Virus record (IMG/VR): IMGVR_UViG_3300023179_000062 | Span: 1 to 64,000 of that record | Length of the DNA: 64,000 nt | Origin: a virus | Strand: one strand, 5' to 3' | Part shown: in pieces, positions 643 through 54,507 of the stretch | Layout: each line of letters opens with the position of its first letter | Numbering within the stretch: position 1 is the stretch's first letter | Notes under the pieces: generated by a model | Told to the model about the DNA's origin: nothing | Databases searched by the model: none | The model's input: only the letters and a program-made list of their open reading frames with translations | Made by a program: the position numbers and the translations under genes

Positions 643-793
643 AAAGAGTATTTGACAACCCCCTGAAAAGGGTTATAGTAGGGGACTAGCTATCTAGACG
701 CTCCTACTAAAAAGAAAAAGAAAGACTTTGACAAAGGGCGAGAATGTGGTAACTTGTCCTAAGCAGTGAGAACGGAGAATCTCATAGAGCTAT

Positions 794-848: not shown

Positions 849-894
849 TACCGGCTGGGAGTGCTTGTTAGCCGTCCTTCGGTGGTGTATGGGT

Positions 895-922
895 ATAATA
901 CACTATGGCTGGCCGTTGTCAA
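895..922 (-). promoter_or_regulatory. Minus-strand sigma70-type promoter
   Basis: Reverse complement reads TTGACA-acggccagccatagtg-TATTAT. Confidence 0.7.
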
Positions 923-1113
923 CAAAAACCTTTTCTATTTCATCTAGGGAAAAACGAATGATTTACCTACGTGTCTCAATAAGAGGTCTTATTGAGAATC
1001 GTGTGAGTTGGCCAAATCAGTTGTTGACTTAACTTATAAAACGGGTATAATGATGCCCCATGAAGAAATCAGTTGTTGACTAATACCAAACAATACACTA
1101 AACTAGCCGTCCT

Positions 1114-1350
1114 ATGAAAAACCTATTCGCCAAATCCCGCACTATCAAAGAACCGAAACCCTCTAAATGGAATTTCAAGCGCAAGCGTGAGCGCAATCTG
1201 CCAAGCGATTACGGCGGCAAGATTACCCGCGCTGCTGGTGGCTTGTATCGTTTCGGCCCCTTCACTGATACGCTTGAAACCCTCAAAGCCTATGCACGCA
1301 CTCTCAAGCTGGAATACCTGAAAATGGGTGCCGTTAGCATCAAACTTTAA
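1114..1350 (+). CDS. small basic hypothetical early protein
   Basis: 78-aa ORF just downstream of promoter 1076-1104; Lys/Arg-rich. Confidence 0.7.
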   Translation: MKNLFAKSRTIKEPKPSKWNFKRKRERNLPSDYGGKITRAAGGLYRFGPFTDTLETLKAYARTLKLEYLKMGAVSIKL

Positions 1351-1356
1351 TCTCAA

Positions 1357-1506
1357 TTGAATGTTTTTGAGAGACTTAATTTAACTTAAAGGTTCAAGCT
1401 TCGCACTAAGAAGAAAGCGGATTACTTGCCAGATATTAAAATAACAGTGTCTTAAACTGTCAATATAGGTGATTACATAGTCCTATAGTCTCTCAAAAGC
1501 ATTCAA
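1357..1506 (+). ncRNA. candidate ~150-nt multibranch structured RNA
   Basis: 20-bp closing stem (1357-1376 with 1487-1506, one U-G wobble) enclosing smaller hairpins (ACAGT/ACTGT, TATAGG/CCTATA); intergenic. Confidence 0.5.
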
Positions 1507-1627
1507 ATTCAAAATTTCTTCCTTGAAACATTCGGGTAAAAAGAGCTTGCAATCGTTTGGAAAGGTGGTAAGGTAAGAACGTTAAGTTAAGGTAACAAAT
1601 AACAAAATCAGTCGAGAATCAAAATCT

Positions 1628-1780
1628 ATGAAAACTGGCATCATTGAACGAATCAGCACGGCAACCAATAAGACAGAGCTTGATGCTCTGGTGACGGAAA
1701 TGGAAGGGTACAAGCATATTGCCCCTGCAACCTTGCGGCGTGGCTATCGCAAAGCAAATGCCATCCTGCGAACGTTCTAA
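1628..1780 (+). CDS. 50-aa hypothetical early protein (MKTGIIERIST...AILRTF)
   Basis: Clean ORF below the track's length cut-off; codon style like neighbours; followed by a hairpin. Confidence 0.6.
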   Translation: MKTGIIERISTATNKTELDALVTEMEGYKHIAPATLRRGYRKANAILRTF

Positions 1781-1807
1781 AACTTTCGGTGTTAGGTGTG
1801 TTGGGTA

Positions 1808-1856
1808 ACGTGGGGAGACTCTAAGGGGAAAGGTAGTACCTTTAGAGTCTCTACGT
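1808..1856 (+). terminator. stem-loop (terminator or RNA element)
   Basis: GAGACTCTAAGG...CCTTTAGAGTCTC inverted repeat downstream of ORF 1628-1780. Confidence 0.5.
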
Positions 1857-1881
1857 GTTCTCTAATTACAATAAAACCATA

Positions 1882-2019
1882 ATGTCTTTCATTTCATTCT
1901 GTCTAGCTCTTACAGCTATTCATATATTGATGCTAGTTTTTCGAGTATGTTCTAAGACTCAACTGGTGGCACAAGCCATTTTAATTTTAATTCTGTTTTT
2001 CTATTTGACAAATAATTGA
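1882..2019 (+). CDS. 45-aa hydrophobic micro-protein
   Basis: MSFISFCLALTAIHILMLVF...AILILILFFYLTNN; two hydrophobic stretches. Confidence 0.4.
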   Translation: MSFISFCLALTAIHILMLVFRVCSKTQLVAQAILILILFFYLTNN

Positions 2020-2072
2020 AATGGGGTATAATGTCGTCGTCAAGGAAACCTTAACTCCGATAGAAAATACCT

Positions 2073-2525
2073 ATGCAAAGCGTCCCGATTATTGAACAGT
2101 TGAGAATCGCAACCCGTAAAGGCAACCGCCTTGCTACTGCGATTGGTGCCATCCTCGGTACCGTTGTCCCCGTCATGGTATATGCTGTGACTCATCATCT
2201 GCCTAAACTCTCATTTATTGATCCAGCATTTTATGTGCTGGCAGTTATGGGAATCGGTGGGTGCTTCTTCTCCCTGAAGTCCGTGATTCAGTGGGGGCAG
2301 TTAGCATTTAATAATGATAAAGCGAAAGCGGTGTCATTTGCGGTGCTGCTAGAAGGCATGCTGGTGATGTCCGGCATGGTAAATGAGTTAGGCTGGTTAG
2401 GCTGGGCCGCACTGGCTTACCTTTGCATGATCAATGCTGTGTCAGCAGGATGCAGTATCGCCATGCAATCCAAGGAATGGACAAGCGAAAAGAGACGTTC
2501 CTTGCCAAAGAAAAGCAAGAAATAA
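2073..2525 (+). CDS. membrane protein, about 4 TM helices
   Basis: 150 aa with four hydrophobic segments; own promoter (2005-2032) and terminator. Confidence 0.8.
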   Translation: MQSVPIIEQLRIATRKGNRLATAIGAILGTVVPVMVYAVTHHLPKLSFIDPAFYVLAVMGIGGCFFSLKSVIQWGQLAFNNDKAKAVSFAVLLEGMLVMSGMVNELGWLGWAALAYLCMINAVSAGCSIAMQSKEWTSEKRRSLPKKSKK

Positions 2526-2537
2526 GGAATAAGAAAT

Positions 2538-2574
2538 AAAAGCGCCTAGTGGTTCATTCCACTAGGCGCTTTTT
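2538..2574 (+). terminator. Rho-independent terminator
   Basis: AGCGCCTAGTGG-ttcatt-CCACTAGGCGCT followed by a T run. Confidence 0.9.
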
Positions 2575-2648
2575 CATATTGACATTAGATCGAATTAGAT
2601 TAGAATAAGCGTACCAAGCAGCGGCACCCTTTGCACCTGTAGATGGTT

Positions 2649-2664
2649 AATTCTAAGGGAACCT
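2649..2664 (+). repeat. third copy of AATTCTAAGGGAACCT
   Basis: Identical to 794-809; 42 nt downstream of -10 box 2601-2606. Confidence 0.9.
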
Positions 2665-2808
2665 ACTCAGGCTCTCTCATATTTGCGACTCAAGAAAAAA
2701 CATTCGTAAAAGAATAAAAGAGCTTGTGCATTCTTCCCTGTATGGTATAATTCCGTTGTCAGCAACTCCGCTGGCACTCACCAAAAACAACGTTAGAATC
2801 CTACTCCT

Positions 2809-3978
2809 ATGTCACACGAAATCATCCAGCCTTATGATCGCACTCTCTCCACCGTCGGCAGTGAATGGCACGGCCTCGCAGAGCAAGTTGAAAAAATCAC
2901 CCCTGAACTCCTGAAAGAGCGCGGCATCTTCTTCCCCATCAAACAGGGAACCGTGCTTAACTCTCTCACTGATGGCGTGAGCTTCCCTGAAGCACTCGCT
3001 GCCGTTACTGCCGCAATCAATGCAGGCGATAATGAAGGCGCAAAACTCGCTCTCGATGCCTTGGGCCTTGCTCAAATCAGCACGCACAAAAACATCATTG
3101 CCGACTTGCGCGGTCTGCGTCCTGACCTTGAAACGGAAGAGTATGCTATGGGCCTTGTCCCTTTGCACGTCACGAAAAAATCCTACGAAGTGATTTCTAA
3201 TGAGCGCGTCTATCAGGTTATCTCTGAAGCGTTCAAAGATTGCCCCATCACTAGCGCGGGAACGCTCCAAGCTCTCCAAGTGTTTTTCATGTCTCTTGAT
3301 ATCGGTGACAATACTCGCAAGGGGCCGCGTGGTGAAACGTTCATGCAAAATCTGAACGCTCTCACCAGTCACAACGGCACGCTTGGAACGCGCTTCTATG
3401 ATTCCTGCGTTCGTATCGTTTGTATGAACACTGTCCGCGCTTCTCTCTCGTCCCGTGGCTTGCTTGATTTCGTGGTTTATCATACTAAGGGCGCTGATGC
3501 CGCTCTGTCTAAGGTTAGCAATGACCTTTCTGCCGTGATGAATGCTCGCAATGAATACTTCAACGGCTTGGAAATCCTCGACACCGTTTCTTGTGATGTG
3601 GCAACGGCTCGTAACTTGTTCCTTGCTTATACGGCACGCATGGCCGAAGAAAAGGGCGCGGATGTTTCCAAATTTGAAATTTCAACGCAAGTTTACAACC
3701 GCGCTGAAGAGATTGGTACGATGTTCGTTCGTGGCAAGGGCAACCGTGGCGCAAATCTCTATGATGCCTATAATGCCCTTACTGAATGTTTCACGCATGG
3801 AGTCGGCGCGGGTAAGACAGCCACGGCAGAAGATAAATTCACTGCTGGCTTGTTCGGAACCGCTGCCGATATCAAAGAGGGCTATCTGTCCTTCCTGCTT
3901 CAACCTGAAGACGTTCGGACAGCACTCAATGAACAAGGTGCCCGCTTGCTCGCCACCTATGCTCAACGCAAAGCATAA
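2809..3978 (+). CDS. DUF932/DUF945-like phage/plasmid protein
   Basis: Motifs WHGL, YEVISN, SHNG...VRIVCMNT, HT, NLYDAYNALTE resemble the DUF932 (TIGR03299-type) family. Confidence 0.8.
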   Translation: MSHEIIQPYDRTLSTVGSEWHGLAEQVEKITPELLKERGIFFPIKQGTVLNSLTDGVSFPEALAAVTAAINAGDNEGAKLALDALGLAQISTHKNIIADLRGLRPDLETEEYAMGLVPLHVTKKSYEVISNERVYQVISEAFKDCPITSAGTLQALQVFFMSLDIGDNTRKGPRGETFMQNLNALTSHNGTLGTRFYDSCVRIVCMNTVRASLSSRGLLDFVVYHTKGADAALSKVSNDLSAVMNARNEYFNGLEILDTVSCDVATARNLFLAYTARMAEEKGADVSKFEISTQVYNRAEEIGTMFVRGKGNRGANLYDAYNALTECFTHGVGAGKTATAEDKFTAGLFGTAADIKEGYLSFLLQPEDVRTALNEQGARLLATYAQRKA

Positions 3979-4007
3979 GCAAATGAGAGGCTAGTCAAAT
4001 GACCTAC

Positions 4008-4040
4008 GAGAGAGGGAGACAATCAAAGTCTCCCTCTCTC
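4008..4040 (+). terminator. stem-loop terminator
   Basis: GAGAGAGGGAGAC-aatcaaa-GTCTCCCTCTCTC (13-bp stem). Confidence 0.75.
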
Positions 4041-4083
4041 CATTTAGAGCTTGCATTCTTTTTCAAATAGCGTATTATTTTGT

Positions 4084-4233
4084 ATGATCTACTCCACCCT
4101 TTCTAACGGCCATCTTATCCCCTGCATGCTTCCTATCGGTTCTATGTACCAAACGCAATGGGGCATGCGTCAGGTTGTCGGACATGTACGCACTGCCCCG
4201 CCCTCCCCTTCTACTGAACCTTATGGCGTTTAG
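4084..4233 (+). CDS. 49-aa hypothetical protein
   Basis: ATG 5 nt after -10 box TATTAT (4073-4078); track start at 4051 is the -35 box. Confidence 0.45.
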   Translation: MIYSTLSNGHLIPCMLPIGSMYQTQWGMRQVVGHVRTAPPSPSTEPYGV

Positions 4234-4288
4234 TCTTTGACAGCTTGCCCTTGCTATGCTATACTGTCGTACACCCCGCACCCCTCCT

Positions 4289-4372
4289 ATGATCTACCTC
4301 GTCTCTTTCCCCGTTGCTCTTACGCTTTTTTTTCCGATTATGATTAAATTCCTTTCATTTGTGATTAATTAG
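4289..4372 (+). CDS. 27-aa hydrophobic micro-protein
   Basis: MIYLVSFPVALTLFFPIMIKFLSFVIN downstream of promoter 4237-4265. Confidence 0.35.
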   Translation: MIYLVSFPVALTLFFPIMIKFLSFVIN

Positions 4373-4379
4373 GTGTAAT

Positions 4380-4700
4380 TACCATAAAGTCGTGGAAAAT
4401 CGGGTATTTCCCCAAAACGGGGGCCACCCCCCTACCCCCGCAAATGCAAATTGATTTTTAATATTATGTATATTACAGTACGTGTCTAATTGATTTTTAA
4501 TATTACAGTAGTGTCTGATTGATTTATTACAATAAATCACATAAATCTCTACATGATAAAAATTTATTTTTTTTTTATTATGAAATTTTGATATTTTCTC
4601 ACACACATAGGGACTTTTTTTATTTTTTATAATTAGTGTGGAAAAAATTTCGGGTACTATATGAATCGGGGGGATATATTATATTATTAATATAAATAAA
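4380..4700. other. non-coding AT-rich region with direct repeats; candidate replication origin or genome junction
   Basis: GC hairpin 4418-4440; AATTGATTTTTAATATTA at 4449-4466 and 4488-4505; TATTACAGTA twice; poly-T tracts; C-rich to G-rich switch. Confidence 0.45.
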
Positions 4701-4705: not shown

Positions 4706-5416
4706 ATGGGTTTTTCTAAATTTTTCAACGAGCATTTTATTAAGAAGCCGATAGATTACGATACATGGGATCGTCAATTATTAGATAAGGGATGGGAGCG
4801 GAAGGGTGAGGGATCATTTGGAATTGCTTATGTGCATCCTAATAAGGATTACATTTATAAAATCTTTCGGAATGATCCGGGGTATGATTTCTTTTTAAAG
4901 TTTGCATTACAAAATCAAAAGGACAAGAGTGTTGTTAAGTTGAAGCGGGTTGTTTTGAACAATGCGGCATCTCCTGATGAAAACTATTTGTCGAGTAAGT
5001 CTATTCCGAATGTTATCGTATTGGAGAAGCTTACCCCGTTGCGGGATAAAATCTCAAACTACGATTTGGTGTTTAATGCATCGTTCATAATAATGAAAAG
5101 TTTAGATCAAGTGTACAAAGATGGGATGACATATGAGCAAGCAATTGCGGCTCTCTTGGATTATGCAAAGAAACAATATGCATCGGCATATAAGAATATA
5201 ACTAATCGGAAGGATTATGCATTAAAGGTTTGGCGGCGGATGATTAATTTGCTTCGTTCTCCTATGATGTATAAGTTACCTATTTTCCGTACTATGTATA
5301 ATTTGTTTATATTTAGAAAAGAAAATGGGAGCGAGCGTTATTGGGATTTACACGATGGGAATTTGATGTATCGGGAATCCACCGGGGACATTGTATTAAC
5401 TGATCCGTTTGTTTAA
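4706..5416 (+). CDS. protein kinase-like fold protein (Ser/Thr or APH-like)
   Basis: Gly loop GEGSFGIAY, beta3 Lys (IYK), catalytic DLHDGNLM, DPF; TATAAATA upstream. Confidence 0.8.
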   Translation: MGFSKFFNEHFIKKPIDYDTWDRQLLDKGWERKGEGSFGIAYVHPNKDYIYKIFRNDPGYDFFLKFALQNQKDKSVVKLKRVVLNNAASPDENYLSSKSIPNVIVLEKLTPLRDKISNYDLVFNASFIIMKSLDQVYKDGMTYEQAIAALLDYAKKQYASAYKNITNRKDYALKVWRRMINLLRSPMMYKLPIFRTMYNLFIFRKENGSERYWDLHDGNLMYRESTGDIVLTDPFV

Positions 5417-5455: not shown

Positions 5456-6649
5456 ATGAGATTTAAAGATTTTTTTCAAGAAATGTTCGTGCCTAATAAA
5501 TTATTATTGGAGGTGGATTGGTCTATGTGGCAAGATGTTAACAAAACTTGCATGAGTGCAGAACAGGTTGCAGAGATGTTGAATACTGAATTAAAAAGAG
5601 GTGAACATAATAGAACTGCAAAATCAAAAGATAATAAAAGTCCTAATAAAAATGATCCAAGATTCACCGCAAATACATTAGAAAGAAGTCGGGGAGAAAA
5701 TGGATTCATTGACGTAGAAAAATTTATTAAGGAAATTAATAAATTGCCTGCTACTATTTTTGATGTGGGGGAGAAATCTTCCCACACTATTACAGCGAAT
5801 ATTGTTACAGTGAATACTGGTATTCCTGCATTTCGTGCAATATTATGGGACGAGGAGCAAAAGGAATTTTTTGTAATCAACACTTGTCCGGCGGCATCAA
5901 AGTGCGCATCTTATTGTTATGCAATGCAAGGATATTACATAATCAATGACGGGAAAAATCTCAAGTTGGTTAATCGGTTACAGTTATTATTAAATGATCC
6001 TGTAGCATATGAGAAGCAAGCATATAGAGAATTGGAATCATATGCATGGCATGCAAAGCGCGACGGAAAAACTTTACAAATACGATGGAATGATGCAGGA
6101 GATTTCTTTAGTGACGTTTACATGGGAATTGCAGTAAAGTTACATAAAAAGTTAATTGCAGAAGGATATAATGTTAAAACCTATGCATATAGTAAACTTC
6201 ATAAAATGATTGAAATTGGAAAGTCTTTTGGATTTTCCATGAATTTTTCTACATCTGCAAGAAAAGCAGACGTTAATGCAATTGATTTTGCCACAACAAA
6301 GATTTCTGATATTATTCCAAAAGAAGTTTTCAAAGAGTTTTTCATCTCTAGTGGTAAAGGTTACAAGAAAGATAAAACAGGCAAAACATTATTCAGGAAT
6401 TCGTCTGATAAAGATGCATTCAAAGCCAAGGTTGTTGCATATTATAATAACCAATTACCTATTAAATTGGAAGAGCATCAAAAACAAATGGAAGGAAAAA
6501 TTAGTTTAAAATCATTAATATTCACGGATGAATTACCTTTAGAAGAAGGAGACACATTTAAATATAATGTAATCGTTTTACCGGGGGGAGATAGTGATAT
6601 TTCTGCCCAACGTACAGACGTACATTATACATTACTGTGCATGCATTAA
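5456..6649 (+). CDS. phage gp88-like, radical-SAM-related Fe-S protein
   Basis: TCPAASKCASYCYA Cys cluster, IRWNDAGDF and YAYSK motifs. Confidence 0.7.
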   Translation: MRFKDFFQEMFVPNKLLLEVDWSMWQDVNKTCMSAEQVAEMLNTELKRGEHNRTAKSKDNKSPNKNDPRFTANTLERSRGENGFIDVEKFIKEINKLPATIFDVGEKSSHTITANIVTVNTGIPAFRAILWDEEQKEFFVINTCPAASKCASYCYAMQGYYIINDGKNLKLVNRLQLLLNDPVAYEKQAYRELESYAWHAKRDGKTLQIRWNDAGDFFSDVYMGIAVKLHKKLIAEGYNVKTYAYSKLHKMIEIGKSFGFSMNFSTSARKADVNAIDFATTKISDIIPKEVFKEFFISSGKGYKKDKTGKTLFRNSSDKDAFKAKVVAYYNNQLPIKLEEHQKQMEGKISLKSLIFTDELPLEEGDTFKYNVIVLPGGDSDISAQRTDVHYTLLCMH

Positions 6650-7466: not shown

Positions 7467-10400
7467 TTAATCTCCTGATCTTTTATAGAAGGATGGGGCT
7501 TTACCTAATCCTTTAATAGGGACATCGGTATCTCTCAAGGCTTGATCTTTATTAAGCATTCCTAGTTTTGCTTGAGCAAGTTTTTGACGATCTTCAAAGC
7601 GTTGTTGTTTAAGTTTCAGTGCTTCAGGAGAATGGTCTTTATGTCCCGTCATAAATTCTTCATGGGTATAGCACATAGGGGAATCGGCTTTACTTGAGTC
7701 ATAGTAGCTACTATCCATTTCGTATATATATTCTTCGGGATTTTGTCCCATGAATTTGAGAAGGTCCATGGTTGGTTTCACCAGATTATCTTGCCATCCA
7801 GTCCAATAGCTTATAATTTTGTTATGTGTCCACACACGCACTTCATATGCTCCTCTATCATGTTGTTTTTGTGCAATGTCATCTAGAGCAATATCACTCT
7901 TAATATCATTGATATCATCAGAAGGTTTTAACTCATGATCTTTTATACGACGTAAAGTACCCCGAAGATTTCCGTGTCCGGCTTTTTGTGGCGAAGAATC
8001 TTTTCTAAATACAAAGCTACCGGGAGTTCCATCTGTAAGCATTAATACGGTATAACTCTCTTCATTATTATTATAATGGATAGTTGTCTCTGGATCATTT
8101 CTATCTTTTATGTGGTCGGGGCTTTCGGTAAACATGTTTACGTTTTCTTTGATATCACCGTTTTGCACTAATGTTTTAATTTTAGCCATTAAAGTGTCAA
8201 GTGATTCTTTACCGAATACCTTTACCCATTCTTCCCTTGACAGACCCTTGGGTGTTCCCATAGGGGCTTCTTCTGTTACCCATTCACCGTTTACAAAATA
8301 TGCTAATTTAGTCTTATCAATATTTGCAGCCTCTATTAAATCATTCGTTTTACCGACATAGATAATCCATAACCATTTAGCATTGTCATTGAATTGTATA
8401 CCGGGAACCGCACTAGGATTTGTGAAGGGGCGGATTGCACGGGAAATTGCAAAGTTTTTGGTTAATGTACTTGATGATCCTTCTGTAGTCGTCTTTGTTT
8501 CTTCTTTCTCTTTATCCTCGCCCACATATTCTTTTATCTTCTCCTTTAATTCTGTCAAGGCGGCTTGACCGAACGTATTTGCCCAATCAATTCCTAACAT
8601 ACCCACATATTCCACATAGTCCTCTTCAGGCGTCTCATCAGTCCAGTCACCATTAACGAAATAAAATAATTTATCAATAGGTATCTTTGCTTTTTTAACT
8701 AAATCAGTTTCTATGCCTAAGTAGATAACCTTTAGATTTTTTGTCAAGCCATTGGCTGCAATATTTTTCATATGCATTGAAGAGCCAATGAAGGGACGCT
8801 GCGCACGACGAATGGCAAATGCTATCAATTCATCTTGTTCAGAAGGACTGAGAGTTTTTAGTTGGGGAGCAACAGTAGCAACGGGTGTTATTTGTTCCGG
8901 TTTAACAACAACGGCTGTTTTACCTAATTGAGTGAATGCATAATCTCCGAAGATTGAGCGCCATACGGGACTAGTAATTGCATATGAGGTATTGTGCCAT
9001 CCGATCATATGATCCTCATGATGTTTGATCCATGTAGAGTTCGTTGTATCATATAGAAATAATTTTTCTTCGGGAATCTTTGCCTTCTCGATTAATGGCC
9101 CCATGCCTACAGATATTAATAACCGTGATTGAATATGTGCATCCGTGGCAAGAAATGCTAGATTAGTACCTTTCAATTTACCATTATTGAAAAACGGTAC
9201 ATTTGCAATAGTCAATGCTTGTGTTACCAGATTATCATTTACCTTTGGTTTGGTTGTTCCTGTTAAATCACTTAGATCAGGGTCGGGTAATTTATTAGGT
9301 GTAGAGGTACTGTCGTTCTCTGCCAATACTTTAAAGAAGTCTTTAAAGCGGAATGATTCTCCATTGAGATAACGCTGTTGTACTCCCATAGCAGGTTTTG
9401 GTTTTACTCCCATTTGAATAAGGGCTTCTTTCTTTTCCTCAGGAGGAAGCCCATGAACCACTTTTTGCCAATCACTAGTATTAGTAGACTTTTTATTAAC
9501 TAAATCTTTTCTTTCGGGTTTATTTGTTAATGAAGCTAAACTGACGGGATCGGTGTTATCTAATTCCCATTGATATTCATTAGGATTACCTCCTATTAAT
9601 TTAATCATTTCGATTATTTTTGGTAAGTTATTTTTTACATATACAGACTTGTTCCAAAACGAAATATAATTATGTTCTGTCCAAATTCTACCTTGTATAC
9701 ATTCGGGTAGTTTTCGTAACATGAATTCTCTGTCGGTATCCGGTCCTGCATATGATAAAAGTTTAACAGATGGAGTACCATAAAAGGTTAACAGGGATTT
9801 CCGGTGTTTGTTACCATGAGTAAATGCGTCATCAATATATTCAAATAAACCGGAATGAAATACTTTATTACTATTGGTAAGACATATAAAATCTTGATGA
9901 ACAATAAAGGTTCGGGCATCGGGCATTCGCCATCCTAAACTTTCTTCTTCTATTCCATCAACAGGTTCTGCTAAAGGAAACCATGTCACTGAATGATCTG
10001 GAGATTCCTTAAAGAAGTCCTTGAAACTTTCCCCCATTGCATATCTTGCTTCTACACCTTTTGCGGCTTTCGGCTTTACACCCATTTGAATAAGGGCTTC
10101 TTTCTTTTCCTCAGGAGGAAGCCCATGAACTATATGGGAAGTATCTGCGGCTTTAATAGGTGTTTGAGTTGGAGCAAGTTTGAAGAATTGCGAATATTTC
10201 AAAAAGGTATCTTCATTATCCCTACCATTATAAAAATTATATTTCATCTTTGTAGGGTCTTTACCGTATAATTTAACTACTCGTTCGACAGTCTTTTTGT
10301 CCTCAGAAGAGAATGAATCTGCGGAATTCCAAAAAGATACAATATCATGTTGCATAGATATTCTACCTAAGAACCCATCATCAACTGCATCTAAGAATGT

Positions 10401-10715
10401 GCCGCGTCTAATATCGGCTACTCTTTTATTTTTTAGAAAATTTATAACATTTTCGGGGGCGACTCCTATTTGTCTATAATATGGTTCAGACCTTTTGAGG
10501 TCATCTTCGGTGCTTATTGAGTGAACCATGTCACTGTATTCAAGTTTAAAAATATTTTTCTTTGCTAGACATAGTAATTCCCAATGTGTTGCAACCTGAT
10601 TATCATAAAAATACATGATGAAATTCCCACAAAACCCAAAGGTAAGTGCGCTTTTATCGCCCATATATAAATCATCAGGGTCTTCGGTTAATAAAAAAAA
10701 GTCTTTGAATCTCAT
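7467..10715 (-). CDS. 1082-aa modular, polyprotein-like putative internal head protein
   Basis: Leader RFKDFF repeated internally; three GRI...ISFWN-type domains and three W..FG-type repeats. Confidence 0.75.
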   Translation of the reverse strand: MRFKDFFLLTEDPDDLYMGDKSALTFGFCGNFIMYFYDNQVATHWELLCLAKKNIFKLEYSDMVHSISTEDDLKRSEPYYRQIGVAPENVINFLKNKRVADIRRGTFLDAVDDGFLGRISMQHDIVSFWNSADSFSSEDKKTVERVVKLYGKDPTKMKYNFYNGRDNEDTFLKYSQFFKLAPTQTPIKAADTSHIVHGLPPEEKKEALIQMGVKPKAAKGVEARYAMGESFKDFFKESPDHSVTWFPLAEPVDGIEEESLGWRMPDARTFIVHQDFICLTNSNKVFHSGLFEYIDDAFTHGNKHRKSLLTFYGTPSVKLLSYAGPDTDREFMLRKLPECIQGRIWTEHNYISFWNKSVYVKNNLPKIIEMIKLIGGNPNEYQWELDNTDPVSLASLTNKPERKDLVNKKSTNTSDWQKVVHGLPPEEKKEALIQMGVKPKPAMGVQQRYLNGESFRFKDFFKVLAENDSTSTPNKLPDPDLSDLTGTTKPKVNDNLVTQALTIANVPFFNNGKLKGTNLAFLATDAHIQSRLLISVGMGPLIEKAKIPEEKLFLYDTTNSTWIKHHEDHMIGWHNTSYAITSPVWRSIFGDYAFTQLGKTAVVVKPEQITPVATVAPQLKTLSPSEQDELIAFAIRRAQRPFIGSSMHMKNIAANGLTKNLKVIYLGIETDLVKKAKIPIDKLFYFVNGDWTDETPEEDYVEYVGMLGIDWANTFGQAALTELKEKIKEYVGEDKEKEETKTTTEGSSSTLTKNFAISRAIRPFTNPSAVPGIQFNDNAKWLWIIYVGKTNDLIEAANIDKTKLAYFVNGEWVTEEAPMGTPKGLSREEWVKVFGKESLDTLMAKIKTLVQNGDIKENVNMFTESPDHIKDRNDPETTIHYNNNEESYTVLMLTDGTPGSFVFRKDSSPQKAGHGNLRGTLRRIKDHELKPSDDINDIKSDIALDDIAQKQHDRGAYEVRVWTHNKIISYWTGWQDNLVKPTMDLLKFMGQNPEEYIYEMDSSYYDSSKADSPMCYTHEEFMTGHKDHSPEALKLKQQRFEDRQKLAQAKLGMLNKDQALRDTDVPIKGLGKAPSFYKRSGD
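9409..10130. repeat. 50-bp perfect direct repeat (9409-9458 and 10081-10130)
   Basis: cccatttgaataagggcttctttcttttcctcaggaggaagcccatgaac, encoding VHGLPPEEKKEALIQMG. Confidence 0.95.
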
Positions 10716-10722: not shown

Positions 10723-11256
10723 TTATTTATGCTGAACCATGAAACGGTAATTATGAAATTTCTTATTCTTTCCGTGAACTCGTCGCATTTCATCGGAACT
10801 ATGAATGTAACGATTTACTTTAGTTGATATTTCATAGATACTAAAAATAAAAGCATCCTTATATTGTTCATAGAGTTTGATCCAAAACCCCAATCCCGCA
10901 GGAGTCATTGTGGTGTCTGATAGAATATAAGAATATTTCTTCAGAAGATATTCCATATAAATTGCCCGTGCAAGACCTTTATATTTCGGATTTTGTTGAA
11001 TTAAGTTCTCTTCGATACCGGAACGTTTAAGATAAAACCCTACTTCCGCAGCAACCTCCTGATCATTATGAATAAAATATAAATCAGTATCACCGTTGTT
11101 CACTTCCCAAACATCATACTCAATATTATTCAATTTAACCTTTTCAACAAATCGTCCCATCTTTTTTATATGGGGAATCGTTTCCTCCATTTTCAAATCA
11201 ATGTCAACCCGTTGAGGCATCTCTAATAGTAATTTATAGAGAAAATCAAATTTCAT
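10723..11256 (-). CDS. putative GNAT-fold acetyltransferase-like protein
   Basis: PKYKGLARAIY...SD..MTPAGLGFWIKL resembles GNAT motifs A/B of phage proteins. Confidence 0.5.
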   Translation of the reverse strand: MKFDFLYKLLLEMPQRVDIDLKMEETIPHIKKMGRFVEKVKLNNIEYDVWEVNNGDTDLYFIHNDQEVAAEVGFYLKRSGIEENLIQQNPKYKGLARAIYMEYLLKKYSYILSDTTMTPAGLGFWIKLYEQYKDAFIFSIYEISTKVNRYIHSSDEMRRVHGKNKKFHNYRFMVQHK

Positions 11257-11259: not shown

Positions 11260-11694
11260 TTATGGAGTAACAGTAGGAAGTCCTTGTGTGATTGCATTCG
11301 AGAGAGCTTGAAGGATAGGAACAAGATTTTCCACCGAAGCAATTTTATTAGTTACCGCAGTATTATAGTATGTCTTATAAAGAACAACTAATGCATTTGC
11401 TACATTTAATGCTTCAGGGGTTTGGAGTTCTTTAATCTTTGAAGATTTGATGGTTGCTGCTAATGTATCAGGTGAAAGGTCTTGACCAAGGGCAAAAGTA
11501 TTAATTACTGTCACCAAATCCTTAAGATATGGGATTGCTTTTGGTTGTTTTTGAACACCGATACTAACAGTAGGAGGAACAGTGACACTTATAATGACGG
11601 GTGCATTGGTTAAAATTGCTTGTGCTGTCGGAGTTTTACATCCAGTAAGAACTAAGCAAGAACCAAGTAATAAAGAGATAATTAAGTTTTTCAT
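11260..11694 (-). CDS. putative lipoprotein
   Basis: Signal peptide ending in lipobox LTGC. Confidence 0.7.
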   Translation of the reverse strand: MKNLIISLLLGSCLVLTGCKTPTAQAILTNAPVIISVTVPPTVSIGVQKQPKAIPYLKDLVTVINTFALGQDLSPDTLAATIKSSKIKELQTPEALNVANALVVLYKTYYNTAVTNKIASVENLVPILQALSNAITQGLPTVTP

Positions 11695-11704: not shown

Positions 11705-13456
11705 TTACTCTTCTTGCATAGCCATCATCAACCCATCAATTTCTTTGAATATCTTGGTTTGTATTTTTTTGATGTTTCTTTTTACATTAAGCAAATTACT
11801 TATTATAGTGTACATGTCGTTCGGATCATCCATTGTAAATGATAATTCAACGTTTAGTACATCCCTTTCCCATGAACATGTCTGATTCTTTCTATTCATA
11901 ACATTATTCAATGTAGGTTCATAAAACATATAAAACAACAAACGTTTCTGGTTGTTGATTTGGTCAATAACCGTATCCAGATTTTCACTAAATTTGTTGG
12001 TATTGTTCCATGCCCGTTGGAAAGGGACTTCAAATGTAGTATTAATTCTTACAAAAATATAAGGATGAGCGTCTCTATTTACAGGTTGTGCATGAACTTT
12101 GAAACGGGGGCGAAGTCTGGATTGGTAAGAATTTAAAATATTGTTAACTTCGTCTTGCCACGAAACAACATGATTAGTCTTGTGTCGTATCGCTTTATAC
12201 TCGTTTTTTCCAAAGAAATTATTTAACAAATATTCAAGTGATTCGTCTGAATAATCTCCACCCACAAGAACTATATTATTTTGTGCATAGTTATATTCAG
12301 GAGGATTTTTGAAAATTGGTTGATGTTGTCGGACATAATCTAAAATATTTTCATAGATGTCAGGAGTGATATATCCATATTTTTGTTCAGATTGCAAAGT
12401 AGTGGGAACCGCAAAATCTTTTCCCGTTTCAATATCAACAAATCTACGTAAACGGATACGCCCTATAGGGGCGATACTGCCCGTATTTCTATCAGAATCA
12501 TGAAATATATCTTTGTCATTTAAGTTATTTCTAACTCTTTTCCCGTCAGAACCTTTTATTAAATACACAATTCCTCCGTCATTTTGGGCATCAGCAATTG
12601 CACACTTGGCATAAGTTCCGTCTTCAGAAGAGTACTTTCCTCCCCCTAGTCTGTGACAGGACGAGATACCTTTATGATCTGCCATGCGCAAAACATCAAT
12701 AGGATGGCGTGAAAATAACAAATAATAAAACATATTATTTTGGTCAATTGTCTGTTTCAATGCTCTTAAATGATTTATAGGTTGTACTTTTTCTTTCTTA
12801 ATATTATCAAGAATAACACGGATGGAATGGTAAACGCCGTTACCTAATGTGTTCAATGAATCATTAAATCCGCCACGGATAAATTCTACTCGAATATGAA
12901 TTATATCGTCTATTAATTTCTTTATAGTTTGTACATCCAATGGTTCATTTAATTTATAATTTTCTCTAGTATATGCATTGGCTTTAAGCGTCATGATCAT
13001 ACTTTTATCATGGGTATATAGTTCGTATGTATCTGCGGTGTTGTCATTTTCGAAATGAGGATGGTACGATGTTAGAAATTCTATTATGCGATCTAGTGGA
13101 TTATCTTTATATGCATGAATTTTATATCTTATAAAATTTTGAATAAGTTTATCTTTTATACCACTGACATCTATACGATTATATGCGTCCATCAATTCAA
13201 TCATCTTTTCTTTAAGGGCCGTGTTGATATTTTTACCATGTAATTGTCTATTAGGAAAATCGAAATCGGATAATGCCCATCCTAAATTTTCTGATGCTTT
13301 TTGAAATTTTGGATTAAATACCTTGACTAAGAAACGTTCCCCATGTCCGTTAAACAGGTCATTAAATGGGCGATCAGATACCTTATCCACCGCATCTTGG
13401 ATTTTATCAACAAAACTTTGCTGAGCTTCTAGAAATAATTTAAAGGAATCCGTCAT
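11705..13456 (-). CDS. hypothetical 583-aa protein
   Basis: Conserved-looking core SRHPIDVLRM...SSCH...PIGRIRLR; leader MTDSFKLFLEA. Confidence 0.7.
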   Translation of the reverse strand: MTDSFKLFLEAQQSFVDKIQDAVDKVSDRPFNDLFNGHGERFLVKVFNPKFQKASENLGWALSDFDFPNRQLHGKNINTALKEKMIELMDAYNRIDVSGIKDKLIQNFIRYKIHAYKDNPLDRIIEFLTSYHPHFENDNTADTYELYTHDKSMIMTLKANAYTRENYKLNEPLDVQTIKKLIDDIIHIRVEFIRGGFNDSLNTLGNGVYHSIRVILDNIKKEKVQPINHLRALKQTIDQNNMFYYLLFSRHPIDVLRMADHKGISSCHRLGGGKYSSEDGTYAKCAIADAQNDGGIVYLIKGSDGKRVRNNLNDKDIFHDSDRNTGSIAPIGRIRLRRFVDIETGKDFAVPTTLQSEQKYGYITPDIYENILDYVRQHQPIFKNPPEYNYAQNNIVLVGGDYSDESLEYLLNNFFGKNEYKAIRHKTNHVVSWQDEVNNILNSYQSRLRPRFKVHAQPVNRDAHPYIFVRINTTFEVPFQRAWNNTNKFSENLDTVIDQINNQKRLLFYMFYEPTLNNVMNRKNQTCSWERDVLNVELSFTMDDPNDMYTIISNLLNVKRNIKKIQTKIFKEIDGLMMAMQEE

Positions 13457-13822: not shown

Positions 13823-16800
13823 TTATAATTCCTCTTTTTGTAAGTACTCATATATATCTTTCCACCCTTTTTCGCTTACATAATATTTAATATTAGGATT
13901 GGTTCCTATCATACCGTTGGAATACATTTTGGTGGCAGGTTTATAAGCATATAAATCTTTATGAGAGAACATCGGACATAGGTTTACAAGTTTAGCATGT
14001 ACCGAGCCTTGGGGTGAATCGCTTTTTGCCCCATTTCCTACACAATATAAAGTTACTGGTCCGTATATGGTTTTTGCATCTTTGATGATTTCCGTCATGT
14101 CATCCGCAATATCATAGAACATATCAAACTTTTTCTGTTTTTCATCGGCTTGTTGGCTTTTTATTATCTCCTTAACCTTTGGTACATTTTTCAAAGTTTC
14201 GGAAGGTCCGAACACTGATTCCCATTTAGATAGGAGCATATAATAATCCATTGATTCTGATGATCCATATTGCCCTGCTTCGAAATATGGATTTTGACCG
14301 GGATGGTATGCATGGATATCATAATATCCTGCTTTGTCTCCCTTGACGGATTGTAAAATAGTATATATGTTTGGGTCGCCTCCCTTACCTAACCATACCA
14401 TAGTAGCATTATTATGTGCAGGATCAATTTTGGTAGTTTCTGGCGATGCCCTATTCTTCATTGCCTCAAATAATTGAGGAGATTGATCCTTGTAAAATAT
14501 ATCTGGTGGGGGTTCGTTGAAAATCGCTTCCCATGTATGTGATGTAACATAGTACATATTTTTACTAACATTTCCCTTGGTATGATTTTCCCAATAGTCC
14601 GAAGATTTATAATATAGTTCATTAGATTTGATTCCTAATATATCACTTATATTAGGGCTTTCTTTTCCAAATCCGACAGGCACCATAAAATGGATGCCGT
14701 TCTTTTTCTGAATCTGGTACTCAGGTGTATTTGCAATTTGGCGTATATCAAGACGTTGTTTGTCCAATTTTTCTTTATATATGTTTAGTTCATCGACTAT
14801 CCCTTCGGGTAAAGGTCCGAAAATATGTTCCCAACTTTCTCTAGTTATATATAATTTATATTCTTCATACTCTACATGGCTAGACACTGATCGAGTATTA
14901 CCTTCTGCTGTATAAGTTGGGGTATCCAATATCAAGTCATAAAACACTACATTAGATGATCTACCTACATACATTAGATTTTTAGAACATAATAATGTAT
15001 TGTCAATGTTATCAATGCCTCGATTACGCAATTCATCCATAGATGAATTTTTGTCGAAAATATACTTAGATATTAGTGTATAGAAATATGTGGCATCCCC
15101 AAGTTTATCATTTTCTCGTAAAATTTTTGCTACTCCTAAAAATAATTCCTTCTTATCATTTACTATCCATCCTTGGAAATCTATATGTTTTAAATATAGT
15201 GTCCAATCTGTATCGCTCATATCTATAAATGGCTGTAAAGAACCTAACCGTGCTAAAACAAACTTTATTGCATCATGAACTTTACTTATATGTTGAGGGC
15301 GAGCATATGCTTCTAAACTATTCAAAACATTATATAGATTGTCTCCATCAATTAACAATTTTTTATCTAATTCTGTAGAATTCATTACTGTTCTGATAAA
15401 GGAAGTATTTGCTTGTATGCTCAGTTCCTTTTTAATTCTCTGATATAATTCTTCATGGGATAATGGAATCGCTGTTATCTCATTGGAATGTATTGCATGC
15501 ATAATAATTTCACGCTGTCTTACAGGAGAGATTTTATCCCATATAATATGATTAATGTCATCTATACCACCCCTTAATGCATATAATATATTAGAAGAAC
15601 TATATTTATTAAAGAATGTATCCGTGCTTAATTTTTTAATTACATCTATTGCATGTGGGTCAGTATTTAAAATATTTGCAAGTAGATCATTTTTTGTTTT
15701 ATTGTGAATTGCACTATAGGAATTGAACATGCTGCTATATATTAATTCAGTCCGTTGATTAGGAGATATACTATCCAATAAATTTTTAGAATTGATGAAT
15801 GTATCTGCGTATGATGAGAGTATAGCCTGATAATAGTAAGTGTTCTTTGAAAACTTTTTTAGAATTGCCTGTAGAGTTGACTTGGGCCATGTTTCAAATA
15901 TAGACGGTTGTTTATCTACGCTAGGGTCACAATTAAATAACTGTTGAAGATTATTATAAAAATCCGAAGTAACTTCTTCATCGTCTCCTATTATTGCCCG
16001 TTCAATGTCTTTCCATACTAATTCGGGGACTTTATGTGTTTTAACATATTCAGCAATAATTTGGACAGGGACTGGTTCTGTATTAAAATTACGTGCCAGA
16101 TTAACTACCATGTAATGGTTAGGGGTTTGTGAATCAGACATGGTATCTATCAGGTTCATCAACTTTAATGTGGATTCAATTTTGTCGGTGTAAGAGTTGT
16201 CGCCTCTCCCAAAAATATAACTAAGTTTATAAAAAAAACTTTTATTAAATGTGTTCTGGTTAAAATTTAAACAAAGGTTTAATAATACTATTGCATATTT
16301 TTGTAAACCATCAATAGCCTTCTGTGAGGTTGATTCGTCTATTTCAAATGAGTCAATACGTGATTGTAGATATTTTATAAAATTTTCTGGTACTGGGGGA
16401 TTTGTGCCTATACCATATCTAACTATATTTTTAAGTACAAGAGTAGTCAGAGTGTCTACAGAGAGTGATGCAAATTGATATTCGGGAATTCTATGTAACA
16501 TCTTATACGTTACGATGTTATTAATCACCATAGACACAAAAGCGGATTTCTTTTTAAGCATAGCATCTATAGCTTTAGCAGGGTATTTATCATTCCTAAG
16601 CGCCTCTCTAATATTTTGTTCGAGTTTATTGACAGAATGTTCACCGACCTCACTCCAGTTTTTGTTTTCAATTTTTTCAAGAACCTTGACAAATTTTTTA
16701 CCAAATACTACGCTTTGAGTTGGTTCGTTACTATGGATTGAACCTGATCCCGTATCATCAATAAAAATCGGGCATCCTATCTTTATCATTAGATTGGACC

Positions 16801-44441: not shown

Positions 44442-45122
44442 ATGCAAATCGCTCGTAAATTAATAGTAGAATCACCTAATTATGATCTTGTTTTCGAAAA
44501 AGTACAAGAAAATAGGGATTCTGATAAAAGGTACTTCATTACGGGACAGTATGTAATGATGAATCGCGGTAACAAAAATCGCCGTATTTATGAGGAAGAT
44601 GAAATGGTTCCTGCCGTTGATACCTATATTAAAGAATATGTTCTTGAAAACCGTGGGGGTGGAGAACTTAATCACTCTGACAAGCCAGATGTGGACTTGA
44701 CAAAGTTAGCAGATAAAATCGTTCATCTTGAACGTGATAAACATGACTCAGATTATTATCTTGGGCGTTCTTTAGTACTATCAACCCCATCCGGTAAAAT
44801 CCTTGAATCATTGATTCATGATGGTGTAAAGTTTGGTAAGTCAACTAAATGCTTAGGTCAAATTTCTGAAAGCACTGACGGTTTCAATCGTGTTAAAATG
44901 CCTATTCTCGTCTTAGTTGATAACGTATTTGATCCTTCCGTTTCCACTGCATTCGTAAATGGAATCTGTGAAAATAGAGAATATATCATTGGAAATGATG
45001 GCAAGATTGCCCGTGCATATGAAGCATTAGATGCAAGTCTTTCCAAATATCCTTCCAAGCACTCGGATGAAATCCGTGCCTATATCTTTGAAAACCTTCA
45101 GAAATTCCTTGCAAAAATTTAA
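44442..45122 (+). CDS. gp21: prohead core protease
   Basis: NKNRRIY, GELNHSD, LSTPSGKI, G.ST..LG and D.V.DPS motifs. Confidence 0.9.
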   Translation: MQIARKLIVESPNYDLVFEKVQENRDSDKRYFITGQYVMMNRGNKNRRIYEEDEMVPAVDTYIKEYVLENRGGGELNHSDKPDVDLTKLADKIVHLERDKHDSDYYLGRSLVLSTPSGKILESLIHDGVKFGKSTKCLGQISESTDGFNRVKMPILVLVDNVFDPSVSTAFVNGICENREYIIGNDGKIARAYEALDASLSKYPSKHSDEIRAYIFENLQKFLAKI

Positions 45123-53625: not shown

Positions 53626-54507
53626 TTACATGACATATATACTACCTATTGACGAACCTAATAATGCATCAATGTCATTATTAATATCATTTTCAGAATT
53701 AGATAATATATCATCTAATTCTTCCGTTAATTCTGGTGTCATTTGTTTTGCCACAGGTCCGCTAGGTTTCCCCCATGCATGAGATATTGGTAATATTCTA
53801 GGGAAATTTCTATTCAAGCTTATTTTTCCTGTGATTATATATTGTGCAATTAATTCAAATGTAAATTCGGCATCATTTCGTATATTCTTATCTCTAGCAG
53901 ATTTGAATGTTCCTAAAGCATGCGCTAATTCATTTCGTAATTTACGATCATCTGTTTCAAATCCTCCATAATCACCATAAGATGATATTCTCTTTTTTAG
54001 AGATTGTTTATTATATATGGTACGTGCAATAGTCAATAATAATCTATTAATAGTATCTATTAATTCTTTATAATGATGAGTTGTGCCATTGAATCTTTTA
54101 TGACTGGTGTGTGTTCTAGCAAGTGCATGTCCTAATCTATGAGCTATTGTCCATGCAGTCATTGGCATCTTTTCGTCACCTTTATTATTCACAAAAATAA
54201 TTGTAATTTTATTAGGGTCATTTTGAATGTTTAATTTTAAATTATCTCTGACAAAATCTGGAGATACTCTGCCCAATTCCCCACTTTTATTACCTTCCGA
54301 GGAGCGTAGAAAATACAAGTCAAAATCGAAAGCCGTTTTCTCCCACTTCTTTTTAATTTTTTCTAAACCTTTAGGATTTTTTAAAATATTTATAGAGGCT
54401 TTGTCATATCCATATTTTTTAGCACTGTCTCCCCAATCACCTTTTAACTCAATATTATCTATTGAGTCTTCTTTGATTAATAGTTGATATAATTGATGTA
54501 ATGTCAT
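53626..54507 (-). CDS. hypothetical protein with HExxH-like (HRLGH) motif
   Basis: MTAWTIAHRLGHA...E..FEL.AQY; leader MTLHQLYQLLIKED. Confidence 0.6.
   Translation of the reverse strand: MTLHQLYQLLIKEDSIDNIELKGDWGDSAKKYGYDKASINILKNPKGLEKIKKKWEKTAFDFDLYFLRSSEGNKSGELGRVSPDFVRDNLKLNIQNDPNKITIIFVNNKGDEKMPMTAWTIAHRLGHALARTHTSHKRFNGTTHHYKELIDTINRLLLTIARTIYNKQSLKKRISSYGDYGGFETDDRKLRNELAHALGTFKSARDKNIRNDAEFTFELIAQYIITGKISLNRNFPRILPISHAWGKPSGPVAKQMTPELTEELDDILSNSENDINNDIDALLGSSIGSIYVM

What the first reader, a model, noticed from the sequence alone, without database searches (positions are those of the whole stretch)
7467..10715. 1082-aa polyprotein-like gene with internal copies of the leader at module junctions
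Seen: the N-terminal MRFKDFFLLTE-DPD recurs internally as GE-SFKDFFKE-SPDH (~10035-9993), GE-SFRFKDFFKVLAE (~9363-9315) and NMFTE-SPDH (~8137-8111). Three modules beginning E-[DS]-P-D share a GRI...ISFWN / VRVW...ISYW core, so they are paralogous domains. Inference: several cargo genes were fused head-to-tail, and gp21 cleavage at the internal Glu sites releases 3-4 separate proteins inside the prohead, a polyprotein strategy unusual for dsDNA phages.
Basis: partly seen in the sequence, partly recalled or inferred. Interest (0 to 1): 0.82.

Follow-up and report, generated by a model that had tools for sequence, protein, structure and literature searches.

The report
Phage cargo polyprotein with reiterated leaders
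A very divergent T4-like phage encodes a 123-kDa protein made of four cargo modules joined end to end, each preceded by a copy of the short leader that about a fifth of its genes carry; the phage's head protease probably cuts it into separate proteins, but this has not been shown.

Summary
ORF 7467-10715(-) encodes 1082 aa with this layout: leader, A1, leader, A2, leader, B (three ~105-aa repeats), vestigial leader, A3. A1, A2 and A3 are paralogues.

The contig is a divergent T4-like phage with gp23 and a gp21-type S77 protease. About 20% of its ORFs start with the same leader, M-x-F-K-D-F-F...h-x-E.

What is new here:
- An exhaustive search found 96 cluster representatives of the A module. 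About 27 are stand-alone ~220-aa proteins that start with the leader; others are arrays of 2-7 modules.
- Of 142 module starts, 133 have Glu just before x-P-D and none has Asp. P3 is always hydrophobic (82% L/I), which matches the T4 gp21 site.
- In relatives, an A module is joined through the junction leader to homologues of genes that stand alone, with a leader, in this genome.
- A second lineage (a 297-kb contig) has a different genome-wide leader, and its A-polyprotein junction copies that one.
- AlphaFold2 gives well-folded modules on flexible linkers, and all four proposed sites lie in the linkers.

The head-to-tail fusion of leader-bearing cargo genes is well supported. Cleavage and packaging are inferred, at about 0.6. 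The A and B folds have no known relative. No paper describing this was found. Other notes from this scan had already recorded the shared leaders on this genome.

The parts
7467..10715 (-). Whole ORF: 1082 aa, 123.4 kDa, with the layout leader-A1-leader-A2-leader-B-(leader)-A3
   Evidence: No Pfam or PHROG hit.
10724..10730 (-). T4-late-promoter-like ATAAATA box ending 8 nt before the ATG. It overlaps the stop codon of the upstream gene. There is no such box inside the ORF.
10683..10715 (-). Leader L0, residues 1-11, MRFKDFFLLTE. Proposed cut after E11.
   Evidence: pLDDT is below 50.
10029..10682 (-). Module A1, residues 12-229. It starts DPD, has the GRI...SFWN core, and ends ...RYAMGE.
10005..10028 (-). 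Junction leader L1, residues 230-237, SFKDFFKE. Proposed cut after E237 and possibly after E229.
9357..10004 (-). Module A2, residues 238-453. It starts SPDH, has the GRIW...ISFWN core, and ends ...RYLNGE.
   Evidence: AF2 model pLDDT 86.
9318..9356 (-). Junction leader L2, residues 454-466, SFRFKDFFKVLAE. Proposed cut after E466.
   Evidence: Best internal leader-PSSM hit in the genome. Low pLDDT.
8139..9317 (-). Module B, residues 467-859: three ~105-aa repeats at nt 8916-9239, 8517-8843 and 8160-8468.
   Evidence: Relatives have 3 (P0003) and 5 (P0004) copies.
8124..8138 (-). Vestigial junction leader L3, residues 860-864, NMFTE. Homologues keep the full form, ESFK[QHS]FF....E. Proposed cut after E864.
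7470..8123 (-). Module A3, residues 865-1082: a divergent A paralogue (VRVW...ISYW) with its own C-terminal tail ending ...RSGD.
44442..45122 (+). gp21-type prohead protease (Peptidase_S77), the proposed processing enzyme.
   Evidence: Pfam 4.9e-20. phrog_207 2.8e-35. Aligns to T4 gp21, PDB 5jbl.
10723..11256 (-). Stand-alone leader-bearing gene (MKFDFLYKLLLE|MPQ). Its homologue is fused behind an A module in relative P0058.
   Evidence: E 6e-36
11705..13456 (-). Stand-alone leader-bearing gene (MTDSFKLFLE|AQQ). Its homologues are fused behind A modules in P0009, P0019 and P0076.
   Evidence: E 4e-78 to 4e-122
53626..54507 (-). Stand-alone leader-bearing gene (MTLHQLYQLLIKE|DS). Its homologue is fused behind three A modules in P0011.
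   Evidence: E 3e-66

Best explanation
The ORF is a natural polyprotein of head-packaged cargo in a divergent T4-like, probably jumbo, phage.

Shown:
- It is a head-to-tail fusion of modules: three paralogous ~220-aa 'A' domains and one module of three ~105-aa repeats.
- Each module is preceded by a copy, in one case vestigial, of the leader that about a fifth of this genome's genes carry at their N-terminus.
- The same modules, and other cargo genes, occur split or fused in relatives, always joined at the leader.

Inferred:
- The leader works like the T4 capsid targeting sequence. It takes the precursor into the scaffolding core of the prohead.
- The gp21-type protease then cuts after the Glu of each h-x-E (E11, E237, E466, E864).
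- This would release A1 (~25 kDa), A2 (~25 kDa), B (~44 kDa) and A3 (~25 kDa) in equal amounts.
- These products would later be ejected into the host with the DNA.
- A second cut after the conserved G-E just upstream of each junction leader may excise the leader as a short peptide. This is less certain.

The biochemical function of the modules is unknown.
For: Phage type and enzyme. The contig has gp23 (Pfam 7e-88), TerL and a tail sheath. It has an S77 prohead protease at 44442-45122.

Leader. 19 of 96 ORF N-termini match the leader pattern, against 12 of 460 internal-Met control windows. In length, position and terminal h-x-E the leader resembles the T4 CTS, which is 10-19 aa. In the T4 CTS, residues 4 and 7 serve targeting and residues 8 and 10 serve processing (PMC9026906).

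Internal copies. The best internal PSSM hit in the proteome lies in this ORF. All homologues (P0003-P0009, P0011, P0041) carry G-E-S-F-K-x-F-F...h-x-E at every junction despite 25-44% overall identity.

Family. There are 96 cluster representatives. About 27 are stand-alone proteins that begin with the leader, and 42 have 2-7 modules. At 139 module starts (67 N-terminal, 72 internal) P3 is L 78, I 36, V 12, F 9, Y 2, M 2. P1 is Glu in 133 of 142 and never Asp. In T4, Asp at that position blocks processing (PMC9026906).

Split and fused forms. P0058, P0076, P0019, P0009, P0011 and P0081 join an A module to homologues of this genome's separate leader-bearing genes. The alignments start at residues 2-7 of the separate gene for five of the six, and at residue 34 for the weak P0081 match. 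So the junction leader corresponds to the N-terminal leader. IMG/VR contigs show both adjacent separate A genes and fused arrays.

Second lineage. The 297-kb contig G001 has a different N-terminal leader, L-[KR]-x-[LIV]-[LIV]-x-E. It occurs 10 times within the first 15 residues of 390 ORFs, against 9 times in about 88,000 internal positions. One of those 9 internal hits is the junction of its own A-polyprotein.

Structure. In the full-length AF2 model pTM is 0.32, modules score pLDDT 75-93, and all four sites lie in segments below 50. In the single-module model the leader is disordered.

One transcript. A late-promoter-like box lies before the ATG and none lies inside the ORF.

Size is no barrier. 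T4 packages IPIII fusions to beta-galactosidase (PMC9026906).
Against: - There are no proteomic, expression or virion data. The phage is uncultured, and no cultured phage carries the family.
- h-x-E alone is not specific. The ORF has 21 such motifs, 10 of them in low-confidence segments.
- The invariant E-x-P-D could be a structural or functional feature of the A domain rather than a cleavage signal.
- Some stand-alone members have only 4-6 residues before the Glu (MLNE|DPD, MKLNE|SPD). That is too short for a T4-like CTS, so the leader may not be what targets this family.
- The upstream G-E site lacks a hydrophobic P3 in most homologues, and it is G-D in P0039 and P0052.
- Only 4 of 10 other contigs with the family show an S77 protease. 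One contig estimated 88% complete shows neither S77 nor gp23. Most of these contigs are fragments.
- A permutation test for within-protein covariation of leaders was not significant, p about 0.16.
Confidence: 0.6

Rival explanations
1. The protein is a packaged multi-domain cargo that is not cut internally. Only the N-terminal leader, if any, is removed. The junction leaders survive as flexible linkers, or as extra binding sites that raise affinity for the scaffolding core.
For: - Polyvalent phage proteins can be delivered uncut. The N4 virion RNA polymerase is one example (PMC5512222).
- T4 packages IPIII-foreign-protein fusions (PMC9026906).
- h-x-E motifs are common in the ORF.
- The junctions are predicted disordered, as any linker would be.
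Against: - Linkers do not usually keep an invariant Glu, never Asp, with a hydrophobic P3 across 72 internal junctions in lineages whose linkers are otherwise unrelated.
- The same cargo pairs occur freely split or fused. That is easier to accept if the mature products are the same.
- At the third junction of this ORF the leader has decayed, yet F-T-E|SPD is kept.
Confidence: 0.25
2. The shared leader has nothing to do with the head. It could reflect a constraint on the 5' coding region of mRNAs that start a few bases after the promoter. It could also be a signal for another location or partner. On this reading the ORF is an ordinary cytoplasmic multi-domain protein.
For: - Late-promoter-like boxes lie 5-10 nt before most start codons and no Shine-Dalgarno motif is evident (scan notes e1-6077210 and e1-6077199; seen for 12 genes).
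- The leader codons are very AT-rich.
- The G001 polyprotein does not sit among obvious virion genes.
Against: - The internal copies have no start codon in register and no promoter box, so an mRNA-level signal cannot explain them.
- They are kept at the protein level through synonymous changes.
- The leader ends in the gp21-type site.
- The leader-bearing gene cluster lies beside baseplate genes, as noted for T4 Alt-family genes (PMC5512222).
Confidence: 0.1
3. The modules are made separately by internal translation starts, for example at the Met of A-M-G-E-S.
For: A Met lies 3-4 residues before several junction leaders (RYAMGES, FKMGES).
Against: - That Met is not conserved; other junctions read YLNGES, YLQGES or HKES.
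- No promoter box or ribosome-binding motif precedes it.
Confidence: 0.03

Closest known systems
T4 internal proteins (IPI, IPII, IPIII, Alt) with a capsid targeting sequence, processed by gp21
   Same: - A short N-terminal leader ends in a hydrophobic-x-Glu site.
- The leader is shared by unrelated, fast-evolving cargo genes in one genome.
- A gp21-type S77 protease and gp23 are present.
- The genes are late and lie beside baseplate genes.
- The gene set varies between relatives.
   Different: - Here the leader is also repeated inside one long ORF, at every module boundary.
- About 20% of ORFs carry the leader, against a handful in T4.
- There is no sequence similarity to the T4 IPs or Alt.
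- Packaging and cleavage are unproven.
Polyvalent proteins of phages and conjugative elements (Iyer et al. 2017, PMC5512222)
   Same: - Several independent domains sit in one polypeptide.
- Architectures vary between relatives.
- The proteins are predicted to be delivered with the DNA.
- Processing into separate products has been proposed.
   Different: - None of the catalogued domains (MuF, ART, MPTase and others) was detected.
- No embedded peptidase was found.
- Release would depend on the separate prohead protease acting at reiterated leader sites.
Prohead-protease substrates of giant phages (phiKZ gp175, 201phi2-1, SPN3US gp245)
   Same: - Cleavage is after Glu in a short motif.
- Many head and ejection proteins are cut.
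- The substrates include paralogous families.
   Different: In SPN3US, 13 of the 14 mapped sites remove N-terminal propeptides and the 14th removes the protease's own C-terminal propeptide (PMC10052503). Here several mature products would come from one chain.
Engineered T4 expression-packaging-processing fusions (Hong and Black 1993; Mullaney and Black 1996, as reviewed in PMC9026906)
   Same: A CTS or IPIII fused to another protein carries it into the head, where gp21 processes it.
   Different: Those constructs are man-made. This ORF would be a natural multi-cargo version found across a whole metagenomic family.

Membership tests
T4-type CTS-bearing internal head proteins | N-terminal propeptide of about 10-20 residues ending in L/I-x-E | tested here: met
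   MRFKDFFLLTE|DPD. P3 is L/I in 82% and hydrophobic in 100% of 139 family module starts.
T4-type CTS-bearing internal head proteins | The same leader is carried by several otherwise unrelated proteins of the genome | tested here: met
   19 of 96 N-termini match, against 12 of 460 internal-Met control windows. The PSSM ranking agrees.
T4-type CTS-bearing internal head proteins | The genome encodes a gp21-type (S77) prohead protease and a gp23-type capsid | tested here: met
T4-type CTS-bearing internal head proteins | The protein is present in the head and its leader is removed by the protease | not testable with these tools
   The phage is uncultured. No cultured relative was found.
T4-type CTS-bearing internal head proteins | Sequence homology to T4 IPI, IPII, IPIII or Alt | tested here: not met
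   No Pfam or PHROG hit. The class is defined by function rather than homology, so this carries little weight.
Polyvalent proteins (PMC5512222) | Two or more independent domains in one phage polypeptide, with architectures that vary between relatives | tested here: met
Polyvalent proteins (PMC5512222) | Contains domains of the described catalogue (MuF, ART, MPTase, kinases and others) | tested here: inconclusive
   Pfam finds nothing in P0001, P0003, P0004 or P0006. Fold searches give no clear match.
Polyvalent proteins (PMC5512222) | An embedded peptidase for self-processing | tested here: inconclusive
   No peptidase domain was detected by Pfam or by fold search. A novel peptidase cannot be excluded.

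The most novel reading that the evidence does not exclude
A widespread, undescribed family of metagenomic, mostly large T4-like phages builds its injected protein arsenal from cassettes of the form leader + cargo. These cassettes can be strung into polyproteins of 2-7 modules. The prohead protease cuts them at reiterated copies of the lineage's own capsid-targeting leader. Split and fused gene forms would then be functionally interchangeable and would convert freely during evolution. This would be a natural counterpart of viral polyprotein processing inside a dsDNA phage head.
Probability: 0.5. Interest if true: 0.75.

Novelty: new variant of a known kind. Interest (0 to 1): 0.68.

Why it matters
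If the cuts occur, this is a polyprotein strategy for loading several injected proteins into a dsDNA phage head in fixed proportions. It would reuse the T4 capsid-targeting and protease system. I found no description of this in the literature.

It would explain how cargo genes can shuffle, fuse and split at a common leader without loss of function.

It would give a sequence rule, leader plus h-x-E, for predicting the injected proteome of uncultured T4-like phages.

It also defines two new domain families (A and B) with no known fold or function. These are candidate host-takeover or anti-defence effectors.

The natural multi-cargo design is also relevant to T4-based protein delivery in laboratory strains.

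Tried and rejected
- **Family libraries.** Pfam and PHROG scans of the ORF and its long homologues found nothing.
- **Cultured phages.** tblastn of P0001, P0021 and P0018 against 50,697 phage records found no match.
- **Fold searches of the A-module model.** Foldseek against the PDB and BFVD gave no hit at E <= 1e-3. The VIA-align wide search gave a best Z of 4.9, below the level that means anything. Foldseek on the full-length model gave nothing. The ESM Atlas gave no usable hit. The weak gelsolin-like and Stay-Green rows were not taken as relatives.
- **Stand-alone A3.** A word-based search for A3-type proteins of similar length found none.
- **B repeats.** BLAST does not detect them. An HMM built from the three units does.
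- **Leader covariation.** A permutation test with right-anchored, ungapped scoring gave p about 0.16. It is inconclusive, and leader lengths vary, which weakens the test.
- **Related loci.** The search for related loci failed with alignment A1 because no stretch was conserved enough. It found nothing with P0053 or P0018. A degenerate DNA pattern for GR.W-x5-.SFWN worked instead.
- I could not look at the gene context of P0004, or of the stand-alone proteins known only from the protein collections.
- **Internal initiation and internal promoters.** Both were considered and rejected.
- **Recent DNA duplication of the leader.** Rejected because the copies differ in synonymous codons.
Full report
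**1. What the window is.** The window is the first 64 kb of an 85.5-kb IMG/VR viral contig, estimated 33% complete. It is a T4-like myophage, but very distant from cultured ones.
- Its major capsid protein matches Pfam Gp23 at 7e-88, yet is only 31% identical to the nearest cultured phages, which are cyanophages.
- It encodes a T4-type large terminase and a tail sheath, a baseplate wedge protein, and a head maturation protease at 44442-45122. The protease scores Peptidase_S77 4.9e-20 and phrog_207 2.8e-35, and aligns to T4 gp21, PDB 5jbl.
- Close relatives of the target protein lie on contigs of 262-274 kb, so the phage is probably a jumbo phage.

ORF 7467-10715(-) encodes 1082 aa, 123.4 kDa. 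The N-terminal MRFKDFFLLTE|DPD recurs in three places:
- GE-SFKDFFKE|SPDH at residues 228-241;
- GE-SFRFKDFFKVLAE|NDST at residues 452-466;
- in reduced form, NMFTE|SPDH at residues 860-868.

The three modules that start x-P-D are paralogues. M1 vs M2 gives E 6e-23 and M2 vs M4 gives E 1.6e-7. A family HMM hits residues 1-230, 229-454 and 854-1058. The segment between the second and third junctions is a different kind of module, three ~105-aa repeats at residues 493-600, 625-733 and 750-852.

The recurrence is not chance. I trained a PSSM on 11 other N-terminal leaders of this genome and scanned 26,289 positions. The best internal hit in the whole proteome is residue 456 of this ORF, at 16.6 bits. 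The best internal hit in any other protein scores 10.9, and residue 230 scores 8.8. The copies differ by synonymous codons, so they are maintained at the protein level and are not recent DNA repeats.

**3. The leader is genome-wide.** Nineteen of 96 ORFs begin with the pattern M-x-F-x-x-[FLY]-[FY]...h-x-E. Only 12 of 460 internal-Met control windows match it. Carriers include a NUDIX hydrolase, a GP88-family protein and many unknowns. Most sit in a cluster beside the baseplate genes. Each has a T4-late-promoter-like ATAAATA box a few bases before its ATG. Other first-stage notes of this scan had already recorded the shared leaders and the promoter boxes. I re-derived both here.

**4. Homologues.** Full-length relatives of 658-1758 aa all carry G-E-S-F-K-x-F-F...h-x-E at every module boundary. 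Their module sets differ.

An exhaustive phmmer search with module A2 against 1.84 billion cluster representatives found 96 proteins.
- About 27 are stand-alone ~220-aa proteins that begin with the leader followed by E|[SDN]-P-D. Many of them end in G-D.
- 42 have two to seven A modules.

Across 139 module starts (67 N-terminal, 72 internal), P3 is L 78, I 36, V 12, F 9, Y 2, M 2. Of 142 module starts, 133 have Glu at P1 and none has Asp. This matches the T4 gp21 site. In the T4 CTS, residues 8 and 10 (P3 and P1) govern processing, and Asp at position 10 blocks it (PMC9026906).

**5. Split and fused forms interchange at the leader.**
- P0058 joins an A module to a homologue of ORF 10723-11256 (E 6e-36).
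- P0076, P0019 and P0009 join A modules to homologues of ORF 11705-13456 (E 1e-99, 4e-122 and 4e-78).
- P0011 joins three A modules to a homologue of ORF 53626-54507 (E 3e-66).
- P0081 joins, weakly, to a homologue of ORF 4706-5416.

In five of the six cases the alignment starts at residues 2-7 of the separate gene; for the weak P0081 match it starts at residue 34. So the junction leader corresponds to the N-terminal leader, and Met1 of the separate gene corresponds to the residue after G-E. For example...RYLRGE-STFKNFFNLFLE|MPQRID in the fused form lines up with M-KFDFLYKLLLE|MPQRVD in the separate gene.

A DNA-pattern scan of IMG/VR gave 44 loci. They show both fused arrays and adjacent separate A genes.

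**6. A second lineage repeats the pattern with another leader.** G001 is a 297-kb contig estimated 100% complete, and it has an S77 protease. Its motif L-[KR]-x-[LIV]-[LIV]-x-E occurs 10 times in the first 15 residues of 390 ORFs. It occurs only 9 times in about 88,000 internal positions. One of those nine is the junction of its own two-module A protein...GHIKLKDLINE|DPD. So the junction follows the local leader, as expected if both are read by lineage-specific head machinery. This rests on a pattern I defined by eye and should be repeated on more genomes.

**7. Structure.** The A2 module modelled with 33 sequences gives pLDDT 86. Its core, residues 30-170, scores above 93, and its leader is disordered. 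The full-length model has pTM 0.32. Its modules score pLDDT 75-93, separated by segments below 50. Those segments contain all four proposed sites: E11, E237, E466 and E864. This is a beads-on-a-string picture and does not support one interdependent fold.

No fold relative was found for any part, so the function of the modules is unknown. Conserved polar positions in A (His, two Arg, Trp-Asn, His) suggest a binding or catalytic site.

**8. Mechanism.**
- Shown: the fusion architecture, the reiterated leaders, the interchange of split and fused forms, the protease gene, and a single late-type promoter with none inside the ORF.
- Inferred: the leader targets the precursor to the prohead core, as the T4 CTS does. 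The protease cuts after each h-x-E. Four products of about 25, 25, 44 and 25 kDa are released in equal numbers and later ejected.
- Less certain: a further cut after the conserved G-E would give fused modules the same kind of acidic G-[DE] C-terminus that stand-alone members have (20 proteins end in GD). But this site usually lacks a hydrophobic P3, and it is G-D in two homologues.

**9. Weak points.**
- There is no experimental evidence of packaging or cleavage.
- h-x-E occurs 21 times in the ORF.
- E-x-P-D could be a feature of the domain itself.
- Some stand-alone members have only 4-6 residues before the Glu, so the long leader is not always needed.
- An S77 protease was seen in only 4 of 10 other contigs, most of them fragments.

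**10. Comparison with what is known and verdict.** The system works like T4 internal proteins with a CTS. It resembles 'polyvalent proteins' in being a variable multi-domain delivered protein (PMC5512222). In SPN3US, 13 of the 14 mapped cleavage sites remove N-terminal propeptides and the 14th removes the protease's own C-terminal propeptide (PMC10052503), and T4's CTS fusions are man-made (PMC9026906). I found no description of a natural polyprotein with reiterated CTS-like leaders.

I rate it a new variant of a known kind.

Noticed in passing
window 13823-17386 (-): This 1187-aa leader-bearing neighbour (MNFSSFFNIFSE|ARR) has C-terminal repeats of the form YY....W..[IV]F. They give a marginal match to the B-repeat HMM (full-sequence E 0.0087, three weak hits). 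It may be a distant relative of module B. The gene is absent from the syntenic locus L003.
   Followed up: partly
window 17400-18383 (-) and 5456-6649 (+): Two leader-bearing genes have recognisable domains: NUDIX (6.9e-17) and GP88 (1.3e-18). So the putative cargo set includes enzymes.
   Followed up: partly
window 1-4500: This stretch has higher GC (0.48 at 2001-4000, against about 0.34 elsewhere). It holds a DUF932 protein at 2809-3978 and a membrane-like 150-aa ORF. The same pair lies beside the cargo cluster in L003, so it belongs to the phage and is not host flank.
   Followed up: partly
window 11260-11694 (-): A 144-aa ORF with a lipoprotein-type signal (…LLLGSCLVLTGC) sits inside the leader-bearing cargo cluster. 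It is conserved in L003. It has no leader.
   Followed up: no
G001 (L048-L063), 50931 ORF residue ~301 and 100469 ORF residue ~38: In the 297-kb contig, two further internal copies of that genome's own leader occur, …MKKEQLKNLIRE… and …MIKLKDILAE…. They could be another fusion protein and a miscalled start.
   Followed up: no
L016 7340-8637: Two adjacent A genes appear to be a split form. The upstream protein ends in a junction remnant (…GESFRSWLYKHEQK, then stop). The next gene starts with only MIINE|NPN. This looks like a fission inside a former junction leader.
   Followed up: partly
P0003 residues ~680-1150, P0004 ~465-830, P0006 ~470-658: Relatives carry further cargo modules behind junction leaders. 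One is a ~370-aa module shared by P0003 and P0004. Another is a C-terminal module in P0006 that starts …SSCIVVDVQP, which recalls isochorismatase-like hydrolases by eye only. Pfam finds nothing in either.
   Followed up: no
window 50676-52232 (+): The gp23 homologue has a candidate maturation site, V-I-Q-E|N-G, near residue 72. It lies upstream of the conserved MIRRTFPELI segment. The T4 gp23 site is L-T-E|A at residue 65 (alignment).
   Followed up: partly
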